Below, piece after piece: positions 20,636 to 54,296 of a stretch of 64,000 nt of DNA. Below the pieces are notes generated by a model, which worked only from the letters and a program-made list of their open reading frames with translations, was not told the DNA's origin and did no database searches. Position numbers and translations under genes: made by a program. The first letter of the stretch is position 1; every line of letters starts with the position of its first letter. This DNA is from Octopus vulgaris (lineage: Eukaryota): NCBI GenBank assembly GCA_951406725.2, contig OX597817.1, forward strand, positions 142,290,001-142,354,000. Direction: 5' to 3'.

Positions 20636-20747
20636 TAGGCACAGGTGTGGCACCCTGGAAAAGTGCCTTCTGCTACAGCCTCGGGCCGACCAAAGATTTG
20701 TTAGTGGACTTGGTAGCTAGGTTTATGTGGGTTTATGTGTGTGTATG

Positions 20748-20750
<3 letters not shown>
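20636..20750 (+). mobile_element. 5' half of a family-A SINE with an internal deletion; its internal TG/TA microsatellite hosts the 484-bp array
   Basis: TAGGCACAGGTGTGGC|ACCCTGG...GCCTCGGGCCGACCAAAG. The B-box segment is deleted between two GTGGC copies. Confidence 0.7.
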
Positions 20751-20842
<92 letters not shown>

Positions 20843-21051
20843 TAGGCCGCTGGTGGCAAAGAATTCTACAAATTTTTTTGCCACCCTATATTGATTAATT
20901 ATGAATTTTCTGGTTAGTTCCGTAACGGAATCGGTGGTTCATTTGCTGCCGATAAATTTGGCGCGAGTGCGACGATTTGAAAATTTTAGGTCAGATATTG
21001 CCGAGGTAGCAAGAGGAATGCCTCGTGAAAAATATCTGTTCCGATTTGGCT

Positions 21052-21158
21052 ATTTCTTACTGATGAGTCTAAGGGCCTATGGTGGATTGGCTTGATTTAA
21101 TTTAATCAGGTTAGTTTACCATTAAACGGTAGATGAAACGGTGCATCGTCTAAGAAAT
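21052..21158 (+). ncRNA. Type I hammerhead ribozyme (unit 1)
   Basis: Helix I ATTTCTTA (21052-59)/TAAGAAAT (21151-58). Core CTGATGA 21060-66. Helix II base GTCTA/TAGAT plus a 19-bp distal stem 21079-97/21104-22. GAAA 21135-38. Helix III CGG-TGCA-TCG. GTC triplet, with cleavage predicted after 21150. Confidence 0.88.
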
Positions 21159-21535
21159 TACAGGGTAAAAGTTTTTCAATTTTCTCCTGGTTTACGGTAT
21201 TAATGTTATTTTGCGGTTAAAGCTTTTGGCTGTTATTTCTAGTGGGTGAATGGCCTATTATGGCCGTTCCTTGATTGTGATGTTGAACGTAAAAATGGTT
21301 TATGACTATTTAATTTTTTCCTACTAGGCCGCTGGTGGCAAAAGAATTCTACAAAATTTTTTTGCCACCCTATATTGATTAATTATGAATTTTCTGGTTA
21401 GTTCCGTAACGGAATCGGTGGTTCATTTGCTGCCGATAAATTTGGCGCGAGTGCGACGATTTGAAAATTTTAGGTCAGATATTGCCGAGGTAGCAAGAGG
21501 AATGCCTCGTGAAAAATATCTGTTCCGATTTGGCT

Positions 21536-21642
21536 ATTTCTTACTGATGAGTCTAAGGGCCTATGGTGGATTGGCTTGATTTAATTTAATCAGGTTAGTT
21601 TACCATTAAACGGTAGATGAAACGGTGCATCGTCTAAGAAAT
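21536..21642 (+). ncRNA. Type I hammerhead ribozyme (unit 2)
   Basis: Identical to unit 1. Cleavage predicted after 21634. Confidence 0.88.
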
Positions 21643-22019
21643 TACAGGGTAAAAGTTTTTCAATTTTCTCCTGGTTTACGGTATTAATGTTATTTTGCGG
21701 TTAAAGCTTTTGGCTGTTATTTCTAGTGGGTGAATGGCCTATTATGGCCGTTCCTTGATTGTGATGTTGAACGTAAAAATGGTTTATGACTATTTAATTT
21801 TTTCCTACTAGGCCGCTGGTGGCAAAAGAATTCTACAAAATTTTTTTGCCACCCTATATTGATTAATTATGAATTTTCTGGTTAGTTCCGTAACGGAATC
21901 GGTGGTTCATTTGCTGCCGATAAATTTGGCGCGAGTGCGACGATTTGAAAATTTTAGGTCAGATATTGCCGAGGTAGCAAGAGGAATGCCTCGTGAAAAA
22001 TATCTGTTCCGATTTGGCT

Positions 22020-22126
22020 ATTTCTTACTGATGAGTCTAAGGGCCTATGGTGGATTGGCTTGATTTAATTTAATCAGGTTAGTTTACCATTAAACGGTAG
22101 ATGAAACGGTGCATCGTCTAAGAAAT
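22020..22126 (+). ncRNA. Type I hammerhead ribozyme (unit 3)
   Basis: Identical to unit 1. Cleavage predicted after 22118. Confidence 0.88.
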
Positions 22127-22503
22127 TACAGGGTAAAAGTTTTTCAATTTTCTCCTGGTTTACGGTATTAATGTTATTTTGCGGTTAAAGCTTTTGGCTG
22201 TTATTTCTAGTGGGTGAATGGCCTATTATGGCCGTTCCTTGATTGTGATGTTGAACGTAAAAATGGTTTATGACTATTTAATTTTTTCCTACTAGGCCGC
22301 TGGTGGCAAAAGAATTCTACAAAATTTTTTTGCCACCCTATATTGATTAATTATGAATTTTCTGGTTAGTTCCGTAACGGAATCGGTGGTTCATTTGCTG
22401 CCGATAAATTTGGCGCGAGTGCGACGATTTGAAAATTTTAGGTCAGATATTGCCGAGGTAGCAAGAGGAATGCCTCGTGAAAAATATCTGTTCCGATTTG
22501 GCT

Positions 22504-22610
22504 ATTTCTTACTGATGAGTCTAAGGGCCTATGGTGGATTGGCTTGATTTAATTTAATCAGGTTAGTTTACCATTAAACGGTAGATGAAACGGTGCATCG
22601 TCTAAGAAAT
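22504..22610 (+). ncRNA. Type I hammerhead ribozyme (unit 4)
   Basis: Identical to unit 1. Cleavage predicted after 22602. Confidence 0.88.
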
Positions 22611-22987
22611 TACAGGGTAAAAGTTTTTCAATTTTCTCCTGGTTTACGGTATTAATGTTATTTTGCGGTTAAAGCTTTTGGCTGTTATTTCTAGTGGGTG
22701 AATGGCCTATTATGGCCGTTCCTTGATTGTGATGTTGAACGTAAAAATGGTTTATGACTATTTAATTTTTTCCTACTAGGCCGCTGGTGGCAAAAGAATT
22801 CTACAAAATTTTTTTGCCACCCTATATTGATTAATTATGAATTTTCTGGTTAGTTCCGTAACGGAATCGGTGGTTTATTTGCTGCCGATAAATTTGGCGC
22901 GAGTGCGACGATTTGAAAATTTTAGGTCAGATATTGCCGAGGTAGCAAGAGGAATGCCTCGTGAAAAATATCTGTTCCGATTTGGCT

Positions 22988-23094
22988 ATTTCTTACTGAT
23001 GAGTCTAAGGGCCTATGGTGGATTGGCTTGATTTAATTTAATCAGGTTAGTTTACCATTAAACGGTAGATGAAACGGTGCATCGTCTAAGAAAT
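22988..23094 (+). ncRNA. Type I hammerhead ribozyme (unit 5)
   Basis: Identical to unit 1. Cleavage predicted after 23086. Confidence 0.88.
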
Positions 23095-23471
23095 TACAGG
23101 GTAAAAGTTTTTCAATTTTCTCCTGGTTTACGGTATTAATGTTATTTTGCGGTTAAAGCTTTTGGCTGTTATTTCTAGTGGGTGAATGGCCTATTATGGC
23201 CGTTCCTTGATTGTGATGTTGAACGTAAAAATGGTTTATGACTATTTAATTTTTTCCTACTAGGCCGCTGGTGGCAAAAGAATTCTACAAAATTTTTTTG
23301 CCACCCTATATTGATTAATTATGAATTTTCTGGTTAGTTCCGTAACGGAATCGGTGGTTTATTTGCTGCCGATAAATTTGGCGCGAGTGCGACGATTTGA
23401 AAATTTTAGGTCAGATATTGCCGAGGTAGCAAGAGGAATGCCTCGTGAAAAATATCTGTTCCGATTTGGCT

Positions 23472-23578
23472 ATTTCTTACTGATGAGTCTAAGGGCCTAT
23501 GGTGGATTGGCTTGATTTAATTTAATCAGGTTAGTTTACCATTAAACGGTAGATGAAACGGTGCATCGTCTAAGAAAT
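23472..23578 (+). ncRNA. Type I hammerhead ribozyme (unit 6)
   Basis: Identical to unit 1. Cleavage predicted after 23570. Confidence 0.88.
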
Positions 23579-23955
23579 TACAGGGTAAAAGTTTTTCAAT
23601 TTTCTCCTGGTTTACGGTATTAATGTTATTTTGCGGTTAAAGCTTTTGGCTGTTATTTCTAGTGGGTGAATGGCCTATTATGGCCGTTCCTTGATTGTGA
23701 TGTTGAACGTAAAAATGGTTTATGACTATTTAATTTTTTCCTACTAGGCCGCTGGTGGCAAAAGAATTCTACAAAATTTTTTTGCCACCCTATATTGATT
23801 AATTATGAATTTTCTGGTTAGTTCCGTAACGGAATCGGTGGTTCATTTGCTGCCGATAAATTTGGCGCGAGTGCGACGATTTGAAAATTTTAGGTCAGAT
23901 ATTGCCGAGGTAGCAAGAGGAATGCCTCGTGAAAAATATCTGTTCCGATTTGGCT

Positions 23956-24062
23956 ATTTCTTACTGATGAGTCTAAGGGCCTATGGTGGATTGGCTTGAT
24001 TTAATTTAATCAGGTTAGTTTACCATTAAACGGTAGATGAAACGGTGCATCGTCTAAGAAAT
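23956..24062 (+). ncRNA. Type I hammerhead ribozyme (unit 7)
   Basis: Identical to unit 1. Cleavage predicted after 24054. Confidence 0.88.
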
Positions 24063-24283
24063 TACAGGGTAAAAGTTTTTCAATTTTCTCCTGGTTTACG
24101 GTATTAATGTTATTTTGCGGTTAAAGCTTTTGGCTGTTATTTCTAGTGGGTGAATGGCCTATTATGGCCGTTCCTTGATTGTGATGTTGAACGTAAAAAT
24201 GGTTTATGACTATTTAATTTTTTCCTACTAGGCCGCTGGTGGCAAAAGAATTCTACAAAATTTTTTTTGCCACCCTATATTGA

Positions 24284-24323
<40 letters not shown>

Positions 24324-24511: not shown

Positions 24512-24526
24512 AATTAATTTTACCAG

Positions 24527-24740
24527 GGCGGCGAGCTGGCAGAAACGTTAGCACGCCGGGCGAAATGCTTAGCGTTAATTCGTCTGTCTTTACGTTATGA
24601 GTTCAAATTCCCTCGAGGTCGACTTTGCCTTCCATCATTTCGGGATCGATAAATTAAGTATAATTAGCACACTGGGTTCGATCTAATCGACTAGAACCCT
24701 CCCGAAAATTTCAGAGCTTGTGCCTAGAGTAGAAAAGATT
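24527..24740 (+). mobile_element. Family-B SINE
   Basis: GGCGGCGAGCTGGCAGAAACGTTAGCACGCCGGGCG ... CTTGTGCCTAGAGTAGAAAAG. Confidence 0.88.
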
Positions 24741-24880
24741 GTTAATTTTACCTATTATAAAAATCCATAAAGCATCGTGGAAATTTTCTTCGAATGTGAT
24801 GCAGATTAAACCAGTGAAACTTTAGATTTCTTAATCCCTAACGAGGATAAGATATTCTTTAATTGACTATATATATATAT

Positions 24881-25300
24881 TGAGGGTAGAAATTAATATT
24901 AATTAACTTAATATCAATTTAAACCAGTGCGCTAGCATAATTTTAAAAAATCCGAAGATTCAGAAAGATTATATTACATACAAATAAGAGGAATGACCAC
25001 TAGGTAGATTCCTAATATGCTAGAGGATGATCCCATATGGTCTGACTACCAAATTTTACCACCAAATTTTGTATCTTTTCATTTGTCTTGCTCGCCTTAC
25101 GTTCTCCGAAGATATATGCCAACATTTCTTGAGAACAATTTTTCTTAGTGATCAGACCATATGGCGTCTTCCCCAGCATATTACGAATCCACGCAGTGGT
25201 CATTCCTCTTATTTGTGTGTATTCGTATTTTTATATCAATATTCTAGACTATTGGTTTAAATTGATGTTAATTGTTTGATATGAATTTCTACCCTCATTA

Positions 25301-25352
<52 letters not shown>

Positions 25353-25772
25353 AAATAATGAGGGTAGAAATTCATATCAATCAATTAACATCAATTTAAA
25401 CCAATAGTCTAGAATATTCAAAAAAATCCGAAGATTTAAAATTTTATATTACTGTTAATAAGAAGAATGACCTCTAAAGTGGATTCCTATACGCTAGAGA
25501 TTGACGTCAAATCGCCTTACCACAAAGAGTGTGTTCTCAAGAAAAACCCAGCAGACGCCAAAATGTAAACAACAGTTTGCATTTTGAAAGTATTAATAAT
25601 GAAATTATGATACGAAGGTAATCGTTTTATTTTGTAAATTTTCATTTGCCTCGCTTATTTTTTACATTTTGTCGTTTGCTGGGTTTTTTCTTGAGAACAC
25701 ACTCTTTATGGTAAGGCGATTTGACGTCTGTCTCTAGCTTCTAGGAATCCACTTTAGTGGTCATTCCTCTTA
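24881..25772. mobile_element. Two adjacent foldback/MITE-like elements (24881-25298 and 25358-25772) separated by (TA)n
   Basis: Termini TGAGGGTAGAAATT / AATTTCTACCCTCA. In the second copy 25460-25570 is inverted relative to 25661-25772. A diverged fragment lies at about 9205-9330. Confidence 0.7.
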
Positions 25773-32618: not shown

Positions 32619-33185
32619 AGGCGGCGAGCTGGCAGAATCGTTAGCACGCCGGGCGAAATGCGTAGCCGAATTTCGTCTGCCGCTACGTTCTGAGTTCAAA
32701 TTCTGCAGAGGTCGACTTTGCCTTTCATCCTTTCGGGGTCGATTAGATAAGTACCAGTTACGCACTGGGATCGATATAGTCGACTTAATCCGTTTGTCTG
32801 TCCTTGTTTGTCCTCTCTGTGTTTAGCCCCTTGTAGGTAGTAAAGAAATAGGTATTTCGTCTGCCGCTACGTTCTGAGTTCAAATTCCGCCGCGGTTGAC
32901 TTTGCCTTTCATCCTTTCGGGGTCGATTAAATAAGTACCAGTTACGCATTGGGGTCGATATTTTCGACTTAATCCGTTTTTCTGTCCCTGTGTGTTTAGC
33001 CCCTTGTGGGTAGTAAAGAAATAGGTATTACGTCTGTCTTTTGGTTCTGAGTTCAAATTCCACCAATATTGACTTTGCCTTTCATTCTTTCGGGGTCGAT
33101 AAATTAACTGTTTATCATTGCGTTGATCTACTCGACTGGTCCCCTCCCAACAAATTTCGGGCCTTGTGCCTAGAGTAGAAAAAAA
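32619..33185 (+). mobile_element. Family-B SINE with internally triplicated body
   Basis: One head followed by three successive (T/A)CGTCTG...TTCTGAGTTCAAATTC...GACTTTGCCTTTCAT.CTTTCGGGGTCGAT blocks at about 32672, 32856 and 33029. Confidence 0.88.
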
Positions 33186-53391: not shown

Positions 53392-54296
53392 CAGTTGTTC
53401 CCAAAACATCTTCGGGTTGCCGCCCTATTGACACCGAGGCCATATTCCTAGCGCCCCCACCCCAACTAGCTATTACAACCATAGACCTCTTTCTGAAGCA
53501 AATTCAAAGCAACTGGACTTCACATGTTTTTACATGAATCGCTACCCCATTATCGTCCCACTTTTCACATGAATCGCTACCTCATTATAGTCCCACTTTT
53601 CACATGAATCGCTACCCCATTATCGTCCCACTTTTCCCATGAATCGCTACCCCATTATCGTCCCACTTTTCCCATGAATCGTTACCCCATTATCGTCCCA
53701 CTTTTCCCATGAATCGCTACCCCATTATCGTCCCACTTTTCCCATGAATCGCTACCCATTATCGTCCCACTTTTCCCATGAATCGCTACCCCATTATCGT
53801 CCCACTTTTCCCATGAATCGCTACCCCATTATCGTCCCACTTTTCACATGAATCGCTACCCCATTATAGTCCCACTTTTCACATGAATCGCTACCCCATT
53901 ATCGTCCCACTTTTCAAATGAATCGCTACCCCATTATCGTCCCACTTTTCCCATGAATCGCTACCCCATTATCCTCCAACTTTTCCCATGAATCACTACC
54001 CCATTATCCTCCAACTTTTCCCATGAATCGCTACCCCATTATCGTCCCACTTTTCCCATGAATCGCTACCCCATTATCGTCTCACTTTTCCCATGAATCG
54101 CTACCCCATTATCCTCCAACTTTTCCCATGAATCGCTACCCCATTATCGTCCCACTTTTCACATGAATCGCTACCCCATTATCGTCCCACTTTTCCCATG
54201 AATCGCTACTCCATTATCGTTCCACTTTTCTTTAACACCCCCTTGGCACTTTCCATCGCTCCACGATGGGCAATACTGCCCACTTTGAGAACACTG
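53392..54296. mobile_element. Non-autonomous hAT (Charlie-like) transposon carrying a minisatellite
   Basis: Perfect 8-bp TSD CTTTAGAC (53384-91 and 54297-304). TIRs CAGTTGTTCCCAAA / TTTGAGAACACTG. Confidence 0.9.
53528..54230. repeat. 35-bp minisatellite, about 20 copies
   Basis: Unit TTTTC(C/A)CATGAATCGCTACCCCATTATCGTCCCAC, with minor variants (ATCCTCCAAC, ATAGTCCCAC). Confidence 0.97.

What the first reader, a model, noticed from the sequence alone, without database searches (positions are those of the whole stretch)
21067..21150. Unusual hammerhead geometry: very long G·U-rich helix II and a minimal helix III with a palindromic UGCA loop
Helix II consists of GTCTA/TAGAT, a 7x7-nt internal loop (AGGGCCT / TAAACGG), and an uninterrupted 19-bp stem ATGGTGGATTGGCTTGATT/AATCAGGTTAGTTTACCAT with six G·U pairs. 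G·U pairs work only on the + strand RNA (they become A·C mismatches on the other strand), so the structure points to selection at the RNA level. Helix III is only CGG/TCG closing TGCA, and CGGTGCATCG is self-complementary. Short palindromic helix III is the known signature of hammerheads that cleave as dimers (newt satellite 2, PLE/retrozyme type I). That would make the tandem arrangement functionally required (inference).
Basis: partly seen in the sequence, partly recalled or inferred. Interest (0 to 1): 0.75.

Follow-up and report, generated by a model that had tools for sequence, protein, structure and literature searches.

The report
Knotted hammerhead ribozyme in jumping repeat
This is a predicted self-cutting RNA inside a young, protein-free jumping repeat with thousands of copies in this animal genome; its long arm is real and kept across related families, the loop in that arm likely pairs with a second loop to brace the ribozyme, and cutting is predicted to be helped by, but probably does not need, a neighbouring copy.

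Summary
It lies in each 484-bp unit of a 7-unit array between TA repeats, one insertion of a non-LTR retrozyme superfamily (3,145 exact pattern matches, 3 in the control). The long stem is kept but usually carries one mismatch, and G·U richness covers the whole unit. Helix III is not minimal (four pairs). Folding favours the double hammerhead by 13 kcal/mol, yet a non-palindromic UACA lineage has spread to six arrays, so 'dimer required' is not supported. Insertions carry the Penelope footprint: 25 of 25 complete inverted copies use two different fixed ends. Cleavage, circles and the partner enzyme are untested. Verdict: new variant of a known kind.

The parts
20840..24288 (+). One retrozyme insertion: 7.1 head-to-tail copies of a 484-bp non-coding unit, 5'-truncated at unit position 172, 3' end at unit position 233 (numbering from the cut site)
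   Evidence: no ORF of 110 aa or more overlaps it
20744..20841 (.). (TA)n target, left side
24287..24323 (.). (TA)n target, right side
21048..21051 (+). GGCT, 5' strand of the predicted loop 1-loop 2 pseudoknot (just 5' of helix I)
   Evidence: 76 of 76 cells pair in 19 sequences
21052..21059 (+). Helix I, 5' strand (8 bp with 21151-21158)
21060..21066 (+). Catalytic core strand CUGAUGA; repeated at 21544, 22028, 22512, 22996, 23480, 23964
21067..21071 (+). Helix II proximal, 5' strand (5 bp with 21130-21134; G·U instead of G-C at 10.1-11.1)
   Evidence: all 5 pairs show changes on both sides
21072..21078 (+). 5' side of the internal loop (loop 2); GGCC at 21074-21077 is the 3' strand of the predicted pseudoknot
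21079..21122 (+). Distal hairpin closing loop 2: 19 bp, six G·U, loop TAATTT
21123..21129 (+). 3' side of the internal loop, A-rich and variable
21130..21134 (+). Helix II proximal, 3' strand
21135..21150 (+). GAAA, helix III (ACGG-TGCA-TCGT, 4 bp as hairpin or 12 bp as inter-unit duplex) and GUC triplet; predicted cut after 21150
21151..21158 (+). Helix I, 3' strand (5' end of the predicted monomer)
21248..21281 (+). Hairpin 21248-21269 followed by fixed 3' end E1 (unit position 131), an inferred reverse-transcription start; not the end used by this insertion
21334..21388 (+). Hairpin 21334-21369 followed by fixed 3' end E2 (unit positions about 231-238), the second inferred start; the copy at 24288 is this insertion's end

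Best explanation
This is a type I hammerhead motif in the 484-bp unit of a young non-LTR retrozyme, whose helix II carries an internal loop that likely pairs (4 bp) with the strand 5' of helix I to brace the active fold, closed by a long G·U-rich hairpin that is likely structural rather than catalytic, and whose cleavage is predicted to be faster in tandem units than in a lone unit without strictly needing the dimer. Working model: (1) read-through transcripts of an array (inferred; promoter not found) fold the long hairpin locally, which fixes loop 2; (2) loop 2 GGCY/AGCC pairs with RGCY 5' of helix I, replacing the usual non-Watson-Crick loop contacts (pairing potential shown, function inferred); (3) two neighbouring units join their palindromic helices III into a 12-bp duplex and cut, while a lone unit or circle sits mostly in an inactive fold (computed, no tertiary term); (4) monomers are ligated into circles (inferred from known retrozymes and from array-wide shared variants); (5) a Penelope-like RT/endonuclease nicks (TA)n on both strands and starts copying at two fixed sites 131 and about 236 nt after the cut, giving single or back-to-back multi-unit arrays (footprint shown, enzyme inferred).
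For: Family: 658 candidate places for the window unit, 40 scored; 3,145 exact matches to a superfamily pattern, 3 in the reversed control; lineages 70-96% alike. Structure: 93.3% of 685 cells pair, covariation score 0.280 against 0.186 shuffled, 0 of 500; slid controls 27-47% paired; the consensus fold of seven natural monomers taken as circles is the active hammerhead. Pseudoknot: 76 of 76 cells pair; G-C to A-U on both sides in D1, G·U and C-G in C2, U-A in E and B4; the unpaired A·C combination occurs once in the genome. Long stem: 290 of 306 cells, 84 G·U, 5 A·C; only 2 lone damaged copies have it shortened by 12-42 nt among A/C/D-type motifs. Dimer preference: -13.4 kcal/mol for the window, -6.0 to -8.5 for D lineages; active fold penalised by 2.7-6.9 kcal/mol in six monomer circles. 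Circle bottleneck: 20 of 25 multi-unit loci uniform at family-wide variant sites, permutation mean 1.9, maximum 7 in 10,000; 7 loci have rare variants in all units, 4 of them in both arms. Penelope footprint: 25 of 25 complete inverted loci have one E1 and one E2 end; TA runs at 33 of 40 left and 36 of 40 right flanks; same two ends in lineages B-E; a one-sided tail and inverted copies are the described PLE signature (10.1101/2021.04.23.441226) and the tail lies between two RT start sites (PMC11167929).
Against: No cleavage, probing or circle data; public runs hold the unit only as assembled contigs whose RNA label is a guess. The pseudoknot is short, was anchored on its own RGCY motifs, three of four purine-pyrimidine combinations pair by chance, and it rests on one double change and three single ones in related lineages; in the machine alignment, where gaps fall badly, it scores 86.8%. 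'Pairs with a change on both sides' is 11 against 8.5 shuffled, 35 of 500. The long stem shows almost only one-sided changes. The folding model omits the pseudoknot and co-transcriptional order, and any palindromic hairpin gains energy as a duplex. Five of 25 arrays are mixed, the window's own among them, which a single monomer circle does not explain. None of 20 Penelope-like loci shares sequence with the unit beyond one inserted fragment. The 40 loci are the best-scoring, youngest ones.
Confidence: 0.6

Rival explanations
1. Obligate double hammerhead: a single unit cannot cleave, so tandem arrangement is required and the monomer circle is protected.
For: Lone helix III hairpin -0.1 kcal/mol against -17.5 as duplex; window monomer trapped with the core paired to the helix III 3' strand, penalty 5.2 kcal/mol; loop switched UGCA to UAUA in lineage D, two changes that keep the palindrome; 92 of 100 listed matches palindromic.
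Against: Four-pair helix III; UACA lineage with 40 matches, 34 of them in six arrays, dimer gain 1.1 kcal/mol; invertebrate motifs with 2 bp plus tetraloop cleave as monomers (PMC7229834; PMC7761336). A UACA dimer could still form with two central mismatches (10 of 12 pairs), so this does not exclude the model.
Confidence: 0.2
2. Ordinary monomer-competent hammerhead; the palindromic loop is inherited and the dimer fold plays no part in vivo.
For: Local folding is faster than waiting for 484 more nucleotides (inference); the pseudoknot would add stability that the model omits; D1 monomer penalty only 1.2 kcal/mol; UACA arrays exist.
Against: Two palindromic loop states dominate and the intermediate is rare (40 matches against 3,145 for the wider pattern); active fold penalised in all six circles.
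Confidence: 0.2
3. The long G·U hairpin is kept as a protein-binding or protective element (for the Penelope RT or a host factor), not for the ribozyme.
For: Its length and much of its sequence are kept across 70%-alike lineages; no shortened version has amplified; PAc hammerhead cleavage needs its protein (PMC11167929).
Against: The whole unit is built of similar G·U-rich hairpins; no partner protein identified; the two insertion ends lie beside other hairpins, 130-240 nt away.
Confidence: 0.25
4. No circle: uncleaved linear multimers from already uniform arrays are the template, and cleavage is not needed for insertion.
For: Unprocessed RNA was the dominant substrate for PAc in vitro (PMC11167929); 5 of 25 arrays are mixed, including the window; 8 of 9 Xenopus retrozyme dimers did not cleave in vitro (10.64898/2026.07.22.740005).
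Against: Core, helices and pseudoknot are conserved with compensatory changes; rare variants fixed in every unit of both arms need a one-unit bottleneck at some step.
Confidence: 0.2
5. A DNA satellite whose hairpins are chance or DNA-level features.
For: Below Rfam's gathering score.
Against: Strand-specific folding, G·U against A·C bias, dispersed copies with fixed 3' ends and variable 5' ends.
Confidence: 0.02

Closest known systems
Metazoan non-LTR retrozymes (coral, mussel, axolotl; Cervera and de la Peña 2020, PMC7229834, main-text parts 2-4 of 6 read, supplement not readable; Li, Clavereau and Pollet 2026, 10.64898/2026.07.22.740005, parts 1-3 of 5 read)
   Same: Tandem non-coding units, low GC (37%), one type I hammerhead per unit, dispersed arrays, co-occurrence with PLEs, palindromic helix III loop; weak base of helix II as in axolotl Amex2 (U·U; seen here in lineage D2).
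   Different: 484-bp unit is above the 150-450 bp of the 2020 paper (inside the 51-972 bp of the 2026 preprint); helix II is interrupted by the contact loop and extended by an 18-20-bp hairpin; Watson-Crick pseudoknot instead of the canonical loop contacts; two fixed insertion ends and inverted arms are not described in the parts read.
Pseudoknotted hammerheads (Perreault et al. 2011, PMC3088659, passages) and the type III hammerheads of toad and termite HDV-like RNAs and dipteran genomes (PMC7936874, section 3.1 and passages)
   Same: A helix broken by an internal loop and capped by an extra hairpin, with a 4-nt GC-rich strand (GCCR) pairing to the other loop (YGGC); about 40% of hammerheads in the 2011 survey can form such a pseudoknot.
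   Different: There the extended helix is helix I of a type III motif with about 20 extra nt; here it is helix II of a type I motif with about 44 extra nt, both partners are internal loops or flanks, and the motif sits in a tandem retrozyme.
Dimer-dependent hammerheads of newt satellite 2, axolotl Amex1 and PLE minimal motifs (PMC4209133, parts 1-2 of 4; PMC6765202, passages; Lünse et al. 2017 not held)
   Same: Palindromic helix III that can form an inter-unit duplex; predicted dimer fold is favoured.
   Different: Helix III has four pairs, not 0-2; a non-palindromic lineage has amplified.
Penelope-like elements: tail and inverted insertions (10.1101/2021.04.23.441226, passages; PAc, PMC11167929, parts 1-2 of 4)
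   Same: Two 3' ends, the longer on one side only of inverted insertions; 5' truncation; (TA)n targets.
   Different: No ORF; tail about 105 nt instead of 30-40; each arm holds several whole units; no sequence match to the autonomous elements examined.

Membership tests
Type I hammerhead ribozyme | Core CUGANGA ... GAAA ... NUH in order, helix I open-ended | tested here: met
   Seven identical copies; RF00163 model positions 1-45 matched at 22 bits, under the 34-bit cut-off. Lineages B and E have CCGAUGA, the U4C variant mentioned in PMC3088659.
Type I hammerhead ribozyme | Helices I-III kept by compensatory change | tested here: met
   changes on both sides in 1 helix I pair, 5 helix II pairs, 2 helix III pairs.
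Type I hammerhead ribozyme | G10.1-C11.1 pair at the base of helix II | tested here: not met
   G·U in the window, A-U in 11, G-C in 6, U·U in 1 of 19 sequences.
Type I hammerhead ribozyme | Site-specific self-cleavage | not testable with these tools
   Only assembled contigs available.
Pseudoknotted hammerhead | Four or more Watson-Crick/wobble pairs between loop 1 and loop 2 regions | tested here: met
   76 of 76 cells pair in 19 motif-anchored sequences; 7-bp potential in lineage B. One double change only.
Pseudoknotted hammerhead | Rate loss on disruption and rescue by compensation | not testable with these tools
   Bench test.
Obligate-dimer hammerhead (newt/PLE type) | Helix III of 0-2 bp | tested here: not met
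   Four pairs including A15.1-U16.1 in 18 of 19 sequences.
Obligate-dimer hammerhead (newt/PLE type) | Palindromic loop 3 | tested here: met
   UGCA here; 92 of the first 100 listed matches UGCA or UAUA; UACA exception, 40 matches.
Obligate-dimer hammerhead (newt/PLE type) | Monomer inactive, dimer active | tested here: inconclusive
   Computed only: dimer favoured by 13.4 kcal/mol, monomer penalty 5.2; no tertiary term.
Non-LTR retrozyme | Short tandem non-coding units, each with a type I hammerhead, GC under 50% | tested here: met
   181 G+C of 484.
Non-LTR retrozyme | Dispersed copies; long target duplications when present | tested here: met
   direct flanking repeats of 47-70 nt with non-TA letters at 3 of 40 loci.
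Non-LTR retrozyme | No PBS or polypurine tract | not tested
   No LTR-like layout in 40 loci; PBS and PPT were not searched.
Non-LTR retrozyme | Accumulates as circular RNA | not testable with these tools
   Indirect only: array homogeneity.
Non-autonomous Penelope-like element | Two 3' ends (tail), tail on one side of inverted insertions, microsatellite target | tested here: met
   25 of 25 complete inverted loci; 65 of 65 scored ends fall in two classes, one more end cut by a contig end.
Non-autonomous Penelope-like element | Sequence shared with the pseudo-LTR of an autonomous PLE | tested here: not met
   20 GIY-YIG loci of 6,136 candidates compared; only one inserted retrozyme fragment matched. 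The sample is small.

The most novel reading that the evidence does not exclude
A retrozyme whose hammerhead is a built-in switch: braced by a loop-to-loop pseudoknot presented on an extended helix II, active as a double hammerhead in multi-unit transcripts and off in the monomer circle, which a Penelope RT dimer then copies from two fixed sites, one per DNA strand, to write back-to-back arrays. This would answer how animal retrozyme circles avoid cutting themselves and show their insertion route, with natural UGCA, UAUA and UACA lineages as ready controls.
Probability: 0.3. Interest if true: 0.7.

Novelty: new variant of a known kind. Interest (0 to 1): 0.48.

Why it matters
Two points are left open in the retrozyme papers read here: why the circles do not cut themselves (PMC7229834 suggests an unknown block) and which enzyme inserts them (PLEs proposed; PMC7761336 says the repeats show no motif that identifies the partner). 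This family offers a graded natural series (helix III loop, helix II base pair, pseudoknot pairs) for the first question and a strict two-end insertion rule for the second. The helix geometry itself mirrors an architecture already known in type III hammerheads, so it extends known designs and does not overturn them. Searches of the held library for hammerhead or retrozyme with octopus found no description of this family; subscription papers and the supplement of PMC7229834 could not be seen.

Tried and rejected
ADAR origin of the G·U pairs: no A>G excess on the RNA strand among variants of 40 young loci (locus-private: A>G 7, T>C 16, G>A 24, C>T 10) or among lineage-level changes (A>G 23, T>C 27, G>A 29, C>T 17). 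Rejected.

Core migration between lineages: the first sister copy (L064) seemed to have the hairpin upstream of a short core; other copies showed that it carries a deletion. Rejected.

U1-type internal promoter: local alignments of five monomers to 21 U1 upstream stretches scored within or at most slightly above shuffles, with no common position. No support. Other promoter types were not tested.

Autonomous partner by sequence: a young two-ORF PLE with intact 781-aa RT/GIY-YIG frames, TA targets and its own two ends was found but shares no sequence with the unit. Not identified as partner.

Expression: 19 runs hold half or more of the unit's words; 8 runs were laid; all are contigs, the RNA label is a guess for all but one, and no silent control stretch was laid. 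No claim made. The single run on record as RNA holds 0.09 of the words.

First alignment had three minus-strand rows mis-cut and was not used. One search stopped after five lineages, so lineages B, C and E have no two-unit energies; one search stopped early and was rerun. One search's pattern could not match lineage D1 and only counts the G·U intermediate (3 lone copies). In one search hits under 88% identity were dropped, so L040 counts as single-armed and the B-type element beside L064 is left out. In one search two sequences with an indel in the stem were left out of the 306-cell count (all 19: 318 of 342 on +, 235 on -). Lünse et al. 2017 was not held; it is cited only through reviews.

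Full report
Observation. The core CTGATGA starts at 21060, helix II is GTCTA/TAGAT, the internal loop is 7x7, the distal stem has 19 unbroken pairs with six G·U, and helix III is ACGG-TGCA-TCGT before the GUC triplet ending at 21150. The stem folds far better than shuffles on the + strand (z -8.01, 0 of 200) and not on the - strand (z -1.51, 17 of 200). Rfam reports nothing at gathering score; Hammerhead_1 matches at 22 bits, under its 34-bit cut-off, as expected for a motif with a long insert.

Context. The motif lies in each unit of a 484-bp array, 7.1 copies at 20840-24288, 99-100% identical, with (TA)n on both sides and no ORF of 110 aa. The genome is 2.8 Gb in 227 contigs; earlier notes of this scan call it a cephalopod, which I did not test. 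The unit finds 658 candidate places, of which 40 were scored. A sister family gave 2,356 candidates, two more lineages 33 and 226 exact matches, and a pattern over the 3' half of the motif 3,145 matches against 3 in the reversed control. Seven natural monomers are 474-492 nt and 70-96% alike.

What the internal loop is. In 19 sequences from five lineage groups, a purine-GC-pyrimidine tetramer sits 9-12 nt before the core and another in the internal loop of helix II, and all 76 cells of the 4-bp pairing between them are standard pairs. Fifteen sequences have GGCU with GGCC. D1 has AGCU with GGCU, a change on both sides. C2 has GGCC with GGCU, and E and B4 have GGCU with AGCC. In lineage B the pairing could reach 7 bp. 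Genome-wide, the unpaired A·C combination occurs once and the G·U intermediate three times as lone copies. The evidence is modest: the anchors are the motifs themselves, three of four purine-pyrimidine combinations pair by chance, and only one double change is seen. It fits known biology well. About 40% of hammerheads can use such a pseudoknot, and disrupting one slowed cleavage 20- to over 100-fold (PMC3088659, passages). Toad and termite HDV-like hammerheads use the mirror design, an extended helix I whose internal loop GCCR pairs with YGGC in loop 2 (PMC7936874, section 3.1). I therefore read helix II as a normal 3-7 bp helix whose loop 2 is closed by a long hairpin.

The long stem. It is kept in all lineages. 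Leaving out two sequences with an indel, 290 of 306 cells pair on +, 211 would pair on -, 84 are G·U and 5 are A·C; ten columns show G·U and one shows A·C. Only the window's lineage is unbroken. Changes are nearly all one-sided. Among A/C/D-type motifs only two lone, damaged copies have the stem shortened by 12-42 nt. G·U richness is general: 20-30 G·U pairs in the predicted + strand circles against 2-8 on -. A-to-G changes are not in excess, so RNA editing does not explain it. On the machine alignment the whole structure has 93.3% of 685 cells paired and a covariation score of 0.280 against 0.186 in shuffles (0 of 500), while the count of doubly changed pairs, 11 against 8.5, is reached by 35 of 500 shuffles.

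Helix III and the dimer. Helix III has four pairs, more than the one pair of the newt-type motif or the two of typical invertebrate motifs (PMC7229834), and most invertebrate type I motifs are reported to cleave as monomers (PMC7761336). Still, the lone hairpin is marginal (-0.1 kcal/mol) against -17.5 for the 12-bp duplex. For two natural window units the dimer-active fold equals the unconstrained minimum energy (-204.1) and is 13.4 kcal/mol better than two monomer folds; the single motif is trapped by the core pairing with the helix III 3' strand, at a 5.2 kcal/mol penalty. D lineages give 6.0-8.5. In six monomer circles the active fold costs 2.7-6.9 kcal/mol. The loop is UGCA or UAUA in 92 of the first 100 listed matches. 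Against a strict need, the intermediate UACA has 40 matches, 34 of them in six arrays of 3-8 units, and its dimer gain is 1.1 kcal/mol. The model lacks the pseudoknot and folding order, so the verdict is dimer-favoured, not shown to be required.

How the element spreads. Numbering from the cut site, all 65 scored 3' ends in 40 loci fall near position 131 or near 231-238 (classes 125-140 and 222-250); one more end is cut by a contig end. All 25 complete inverted loci have one end of each kind; 14 loci are single-armed. TA runs flank 33 of 40 left and 36 of 40 right ends, and 3 loci show 47-70-nt direct flanking repeats. The same two ends recur in lineages B-E. A tail on one side of inverted insertions is the described PLE signature (10.1101/2021.04.23.441226), and in PAc it is the stretch between two internal RT start sites (PMC11167929); here it is about 105 nt. 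Units within a locus share variants: 20 of 25 multi-unit loci are uniform at family-wide sites (permutation mean 1.9, maximum 7 of 10,000), and 7 have rare variants in every unit, 4 of them in both arms. That fits repeated copying of one circle. Five loci are mixed, the window among them (two of seven units carry C>T at unit position 274), which points to linear or multimeric templates, later conversion or assembly mixing. The genome holds young PLEs with intact 781-aa RT/GIY-YIG frames, TA targets and two ends about 38 nt apart, but 20 such loci share no sequence with the unit, so the partner is unnamed.

Expression. Nineteen public runs hold at least half of the unit's words, many guessed to be RNA; pieces identical to the window's ribozyme are in several. 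All are contigs and no silent control was laid, so transcription, cleavage and circles remain unshown.

Comparison and novelty. It meets the sequence features of a type I hammerhead, apart from the G-C at the base of helix II, and of a non-LTR retrozyme. It works like a PLE-mobilised element but fails the sequence-sharing test on the sample examined. It fails the short-helix-III feature of obligate dimers. Library searches gave no description of this family or of a type I retrozyme motif with a pseudoknot on an extended helix II; the supplement of PMC7229834, with the mussel motif, and Lünse et al. 2017 could not be read. Other agents in this scan reached the same retrozyme and Penelope reading on other copies; I reached it before that look-up, and it is not independent support. 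The few lines shown of those notes do not mention the pseudoknot or the UACA lineage.

Verdict. Observation confirmed; interpretation partly supported; new variant of a known kind; interest 0.48. Confidence by step, as judgement: retrozyme 0.93, PLE-type insertion 0.85, pseudoknot 0.7, circle template 0.7, dimer-favoured but not obligatory 0.55.

Noticed in passing
L120-L129 (e.g. L124:2206-5580; L123:768-4468): Young two-ORF Penelope-like family with intact 781-aa RT/GIY-YIG frame and a CxxxxCxxC linker (Neptune-like; label from the description and recall), inserted in (TA)n, two 3' ends about 38 nt apart, and a candidate minimal hammerhead with a U3-A8 core and palindromic helix III in its terminal repeat.
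   Followed up: partly
window about 21436-21465 (unit positions about 286-315): TTGGCGCG followed 10-11 nt later by TTTGAAAATT is kept in all seven monomers aligned; resembles E2F and CHR promoter sites (recalled motifs). Possible internal promoter, untested.
   Followed up: no
L073-L098, L215 (lineages B and E): Core reads CCGAUGA (U4C) in whole amplified lineages, together with a canonical G-C at the base of helix II; lineages with the canonical core have A-U, G·U or U·U there. Possible trade-off that keeps activity low.
   Followed up: partly
L073-L098: In lineage B the tip of the long hairpin has grown by 5-nt TTTAA/TTAAA repeats, so its length varies between copies.
   Followed up: no
L064:1958-3391: A young lineage-A element sits directly beside an older lineage-B element in a shared TA run; L184/L185 show a similar mix of lineages.
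   Followed up: partly
run X15 (organism B): A second species holds the superfamily at high summed depth, mostly with GUA at the cut site.
   Followed up: no
window 53533-54230: 35-bp minisatellite, 20 copies, 95% matches.
   Followed up: no
window 32670-33104 and 24525-24730: Dispersed SINE-like repeat, in 2.5 tandem copies of 184 bp at the first place and one copy 240 bp after the array.
   Followed up: no
window 24860-25050 and 25350-25490: Two related copies of another AT-rich repeat beside a TA run just right of the array.
   Followed up: no
G000:C18:48.97-49.21 Mb: Cluster of more than 20 U1 snRNA genes whose upstream sequence differs from that of dispersed U1 genes.
   Followed up: no
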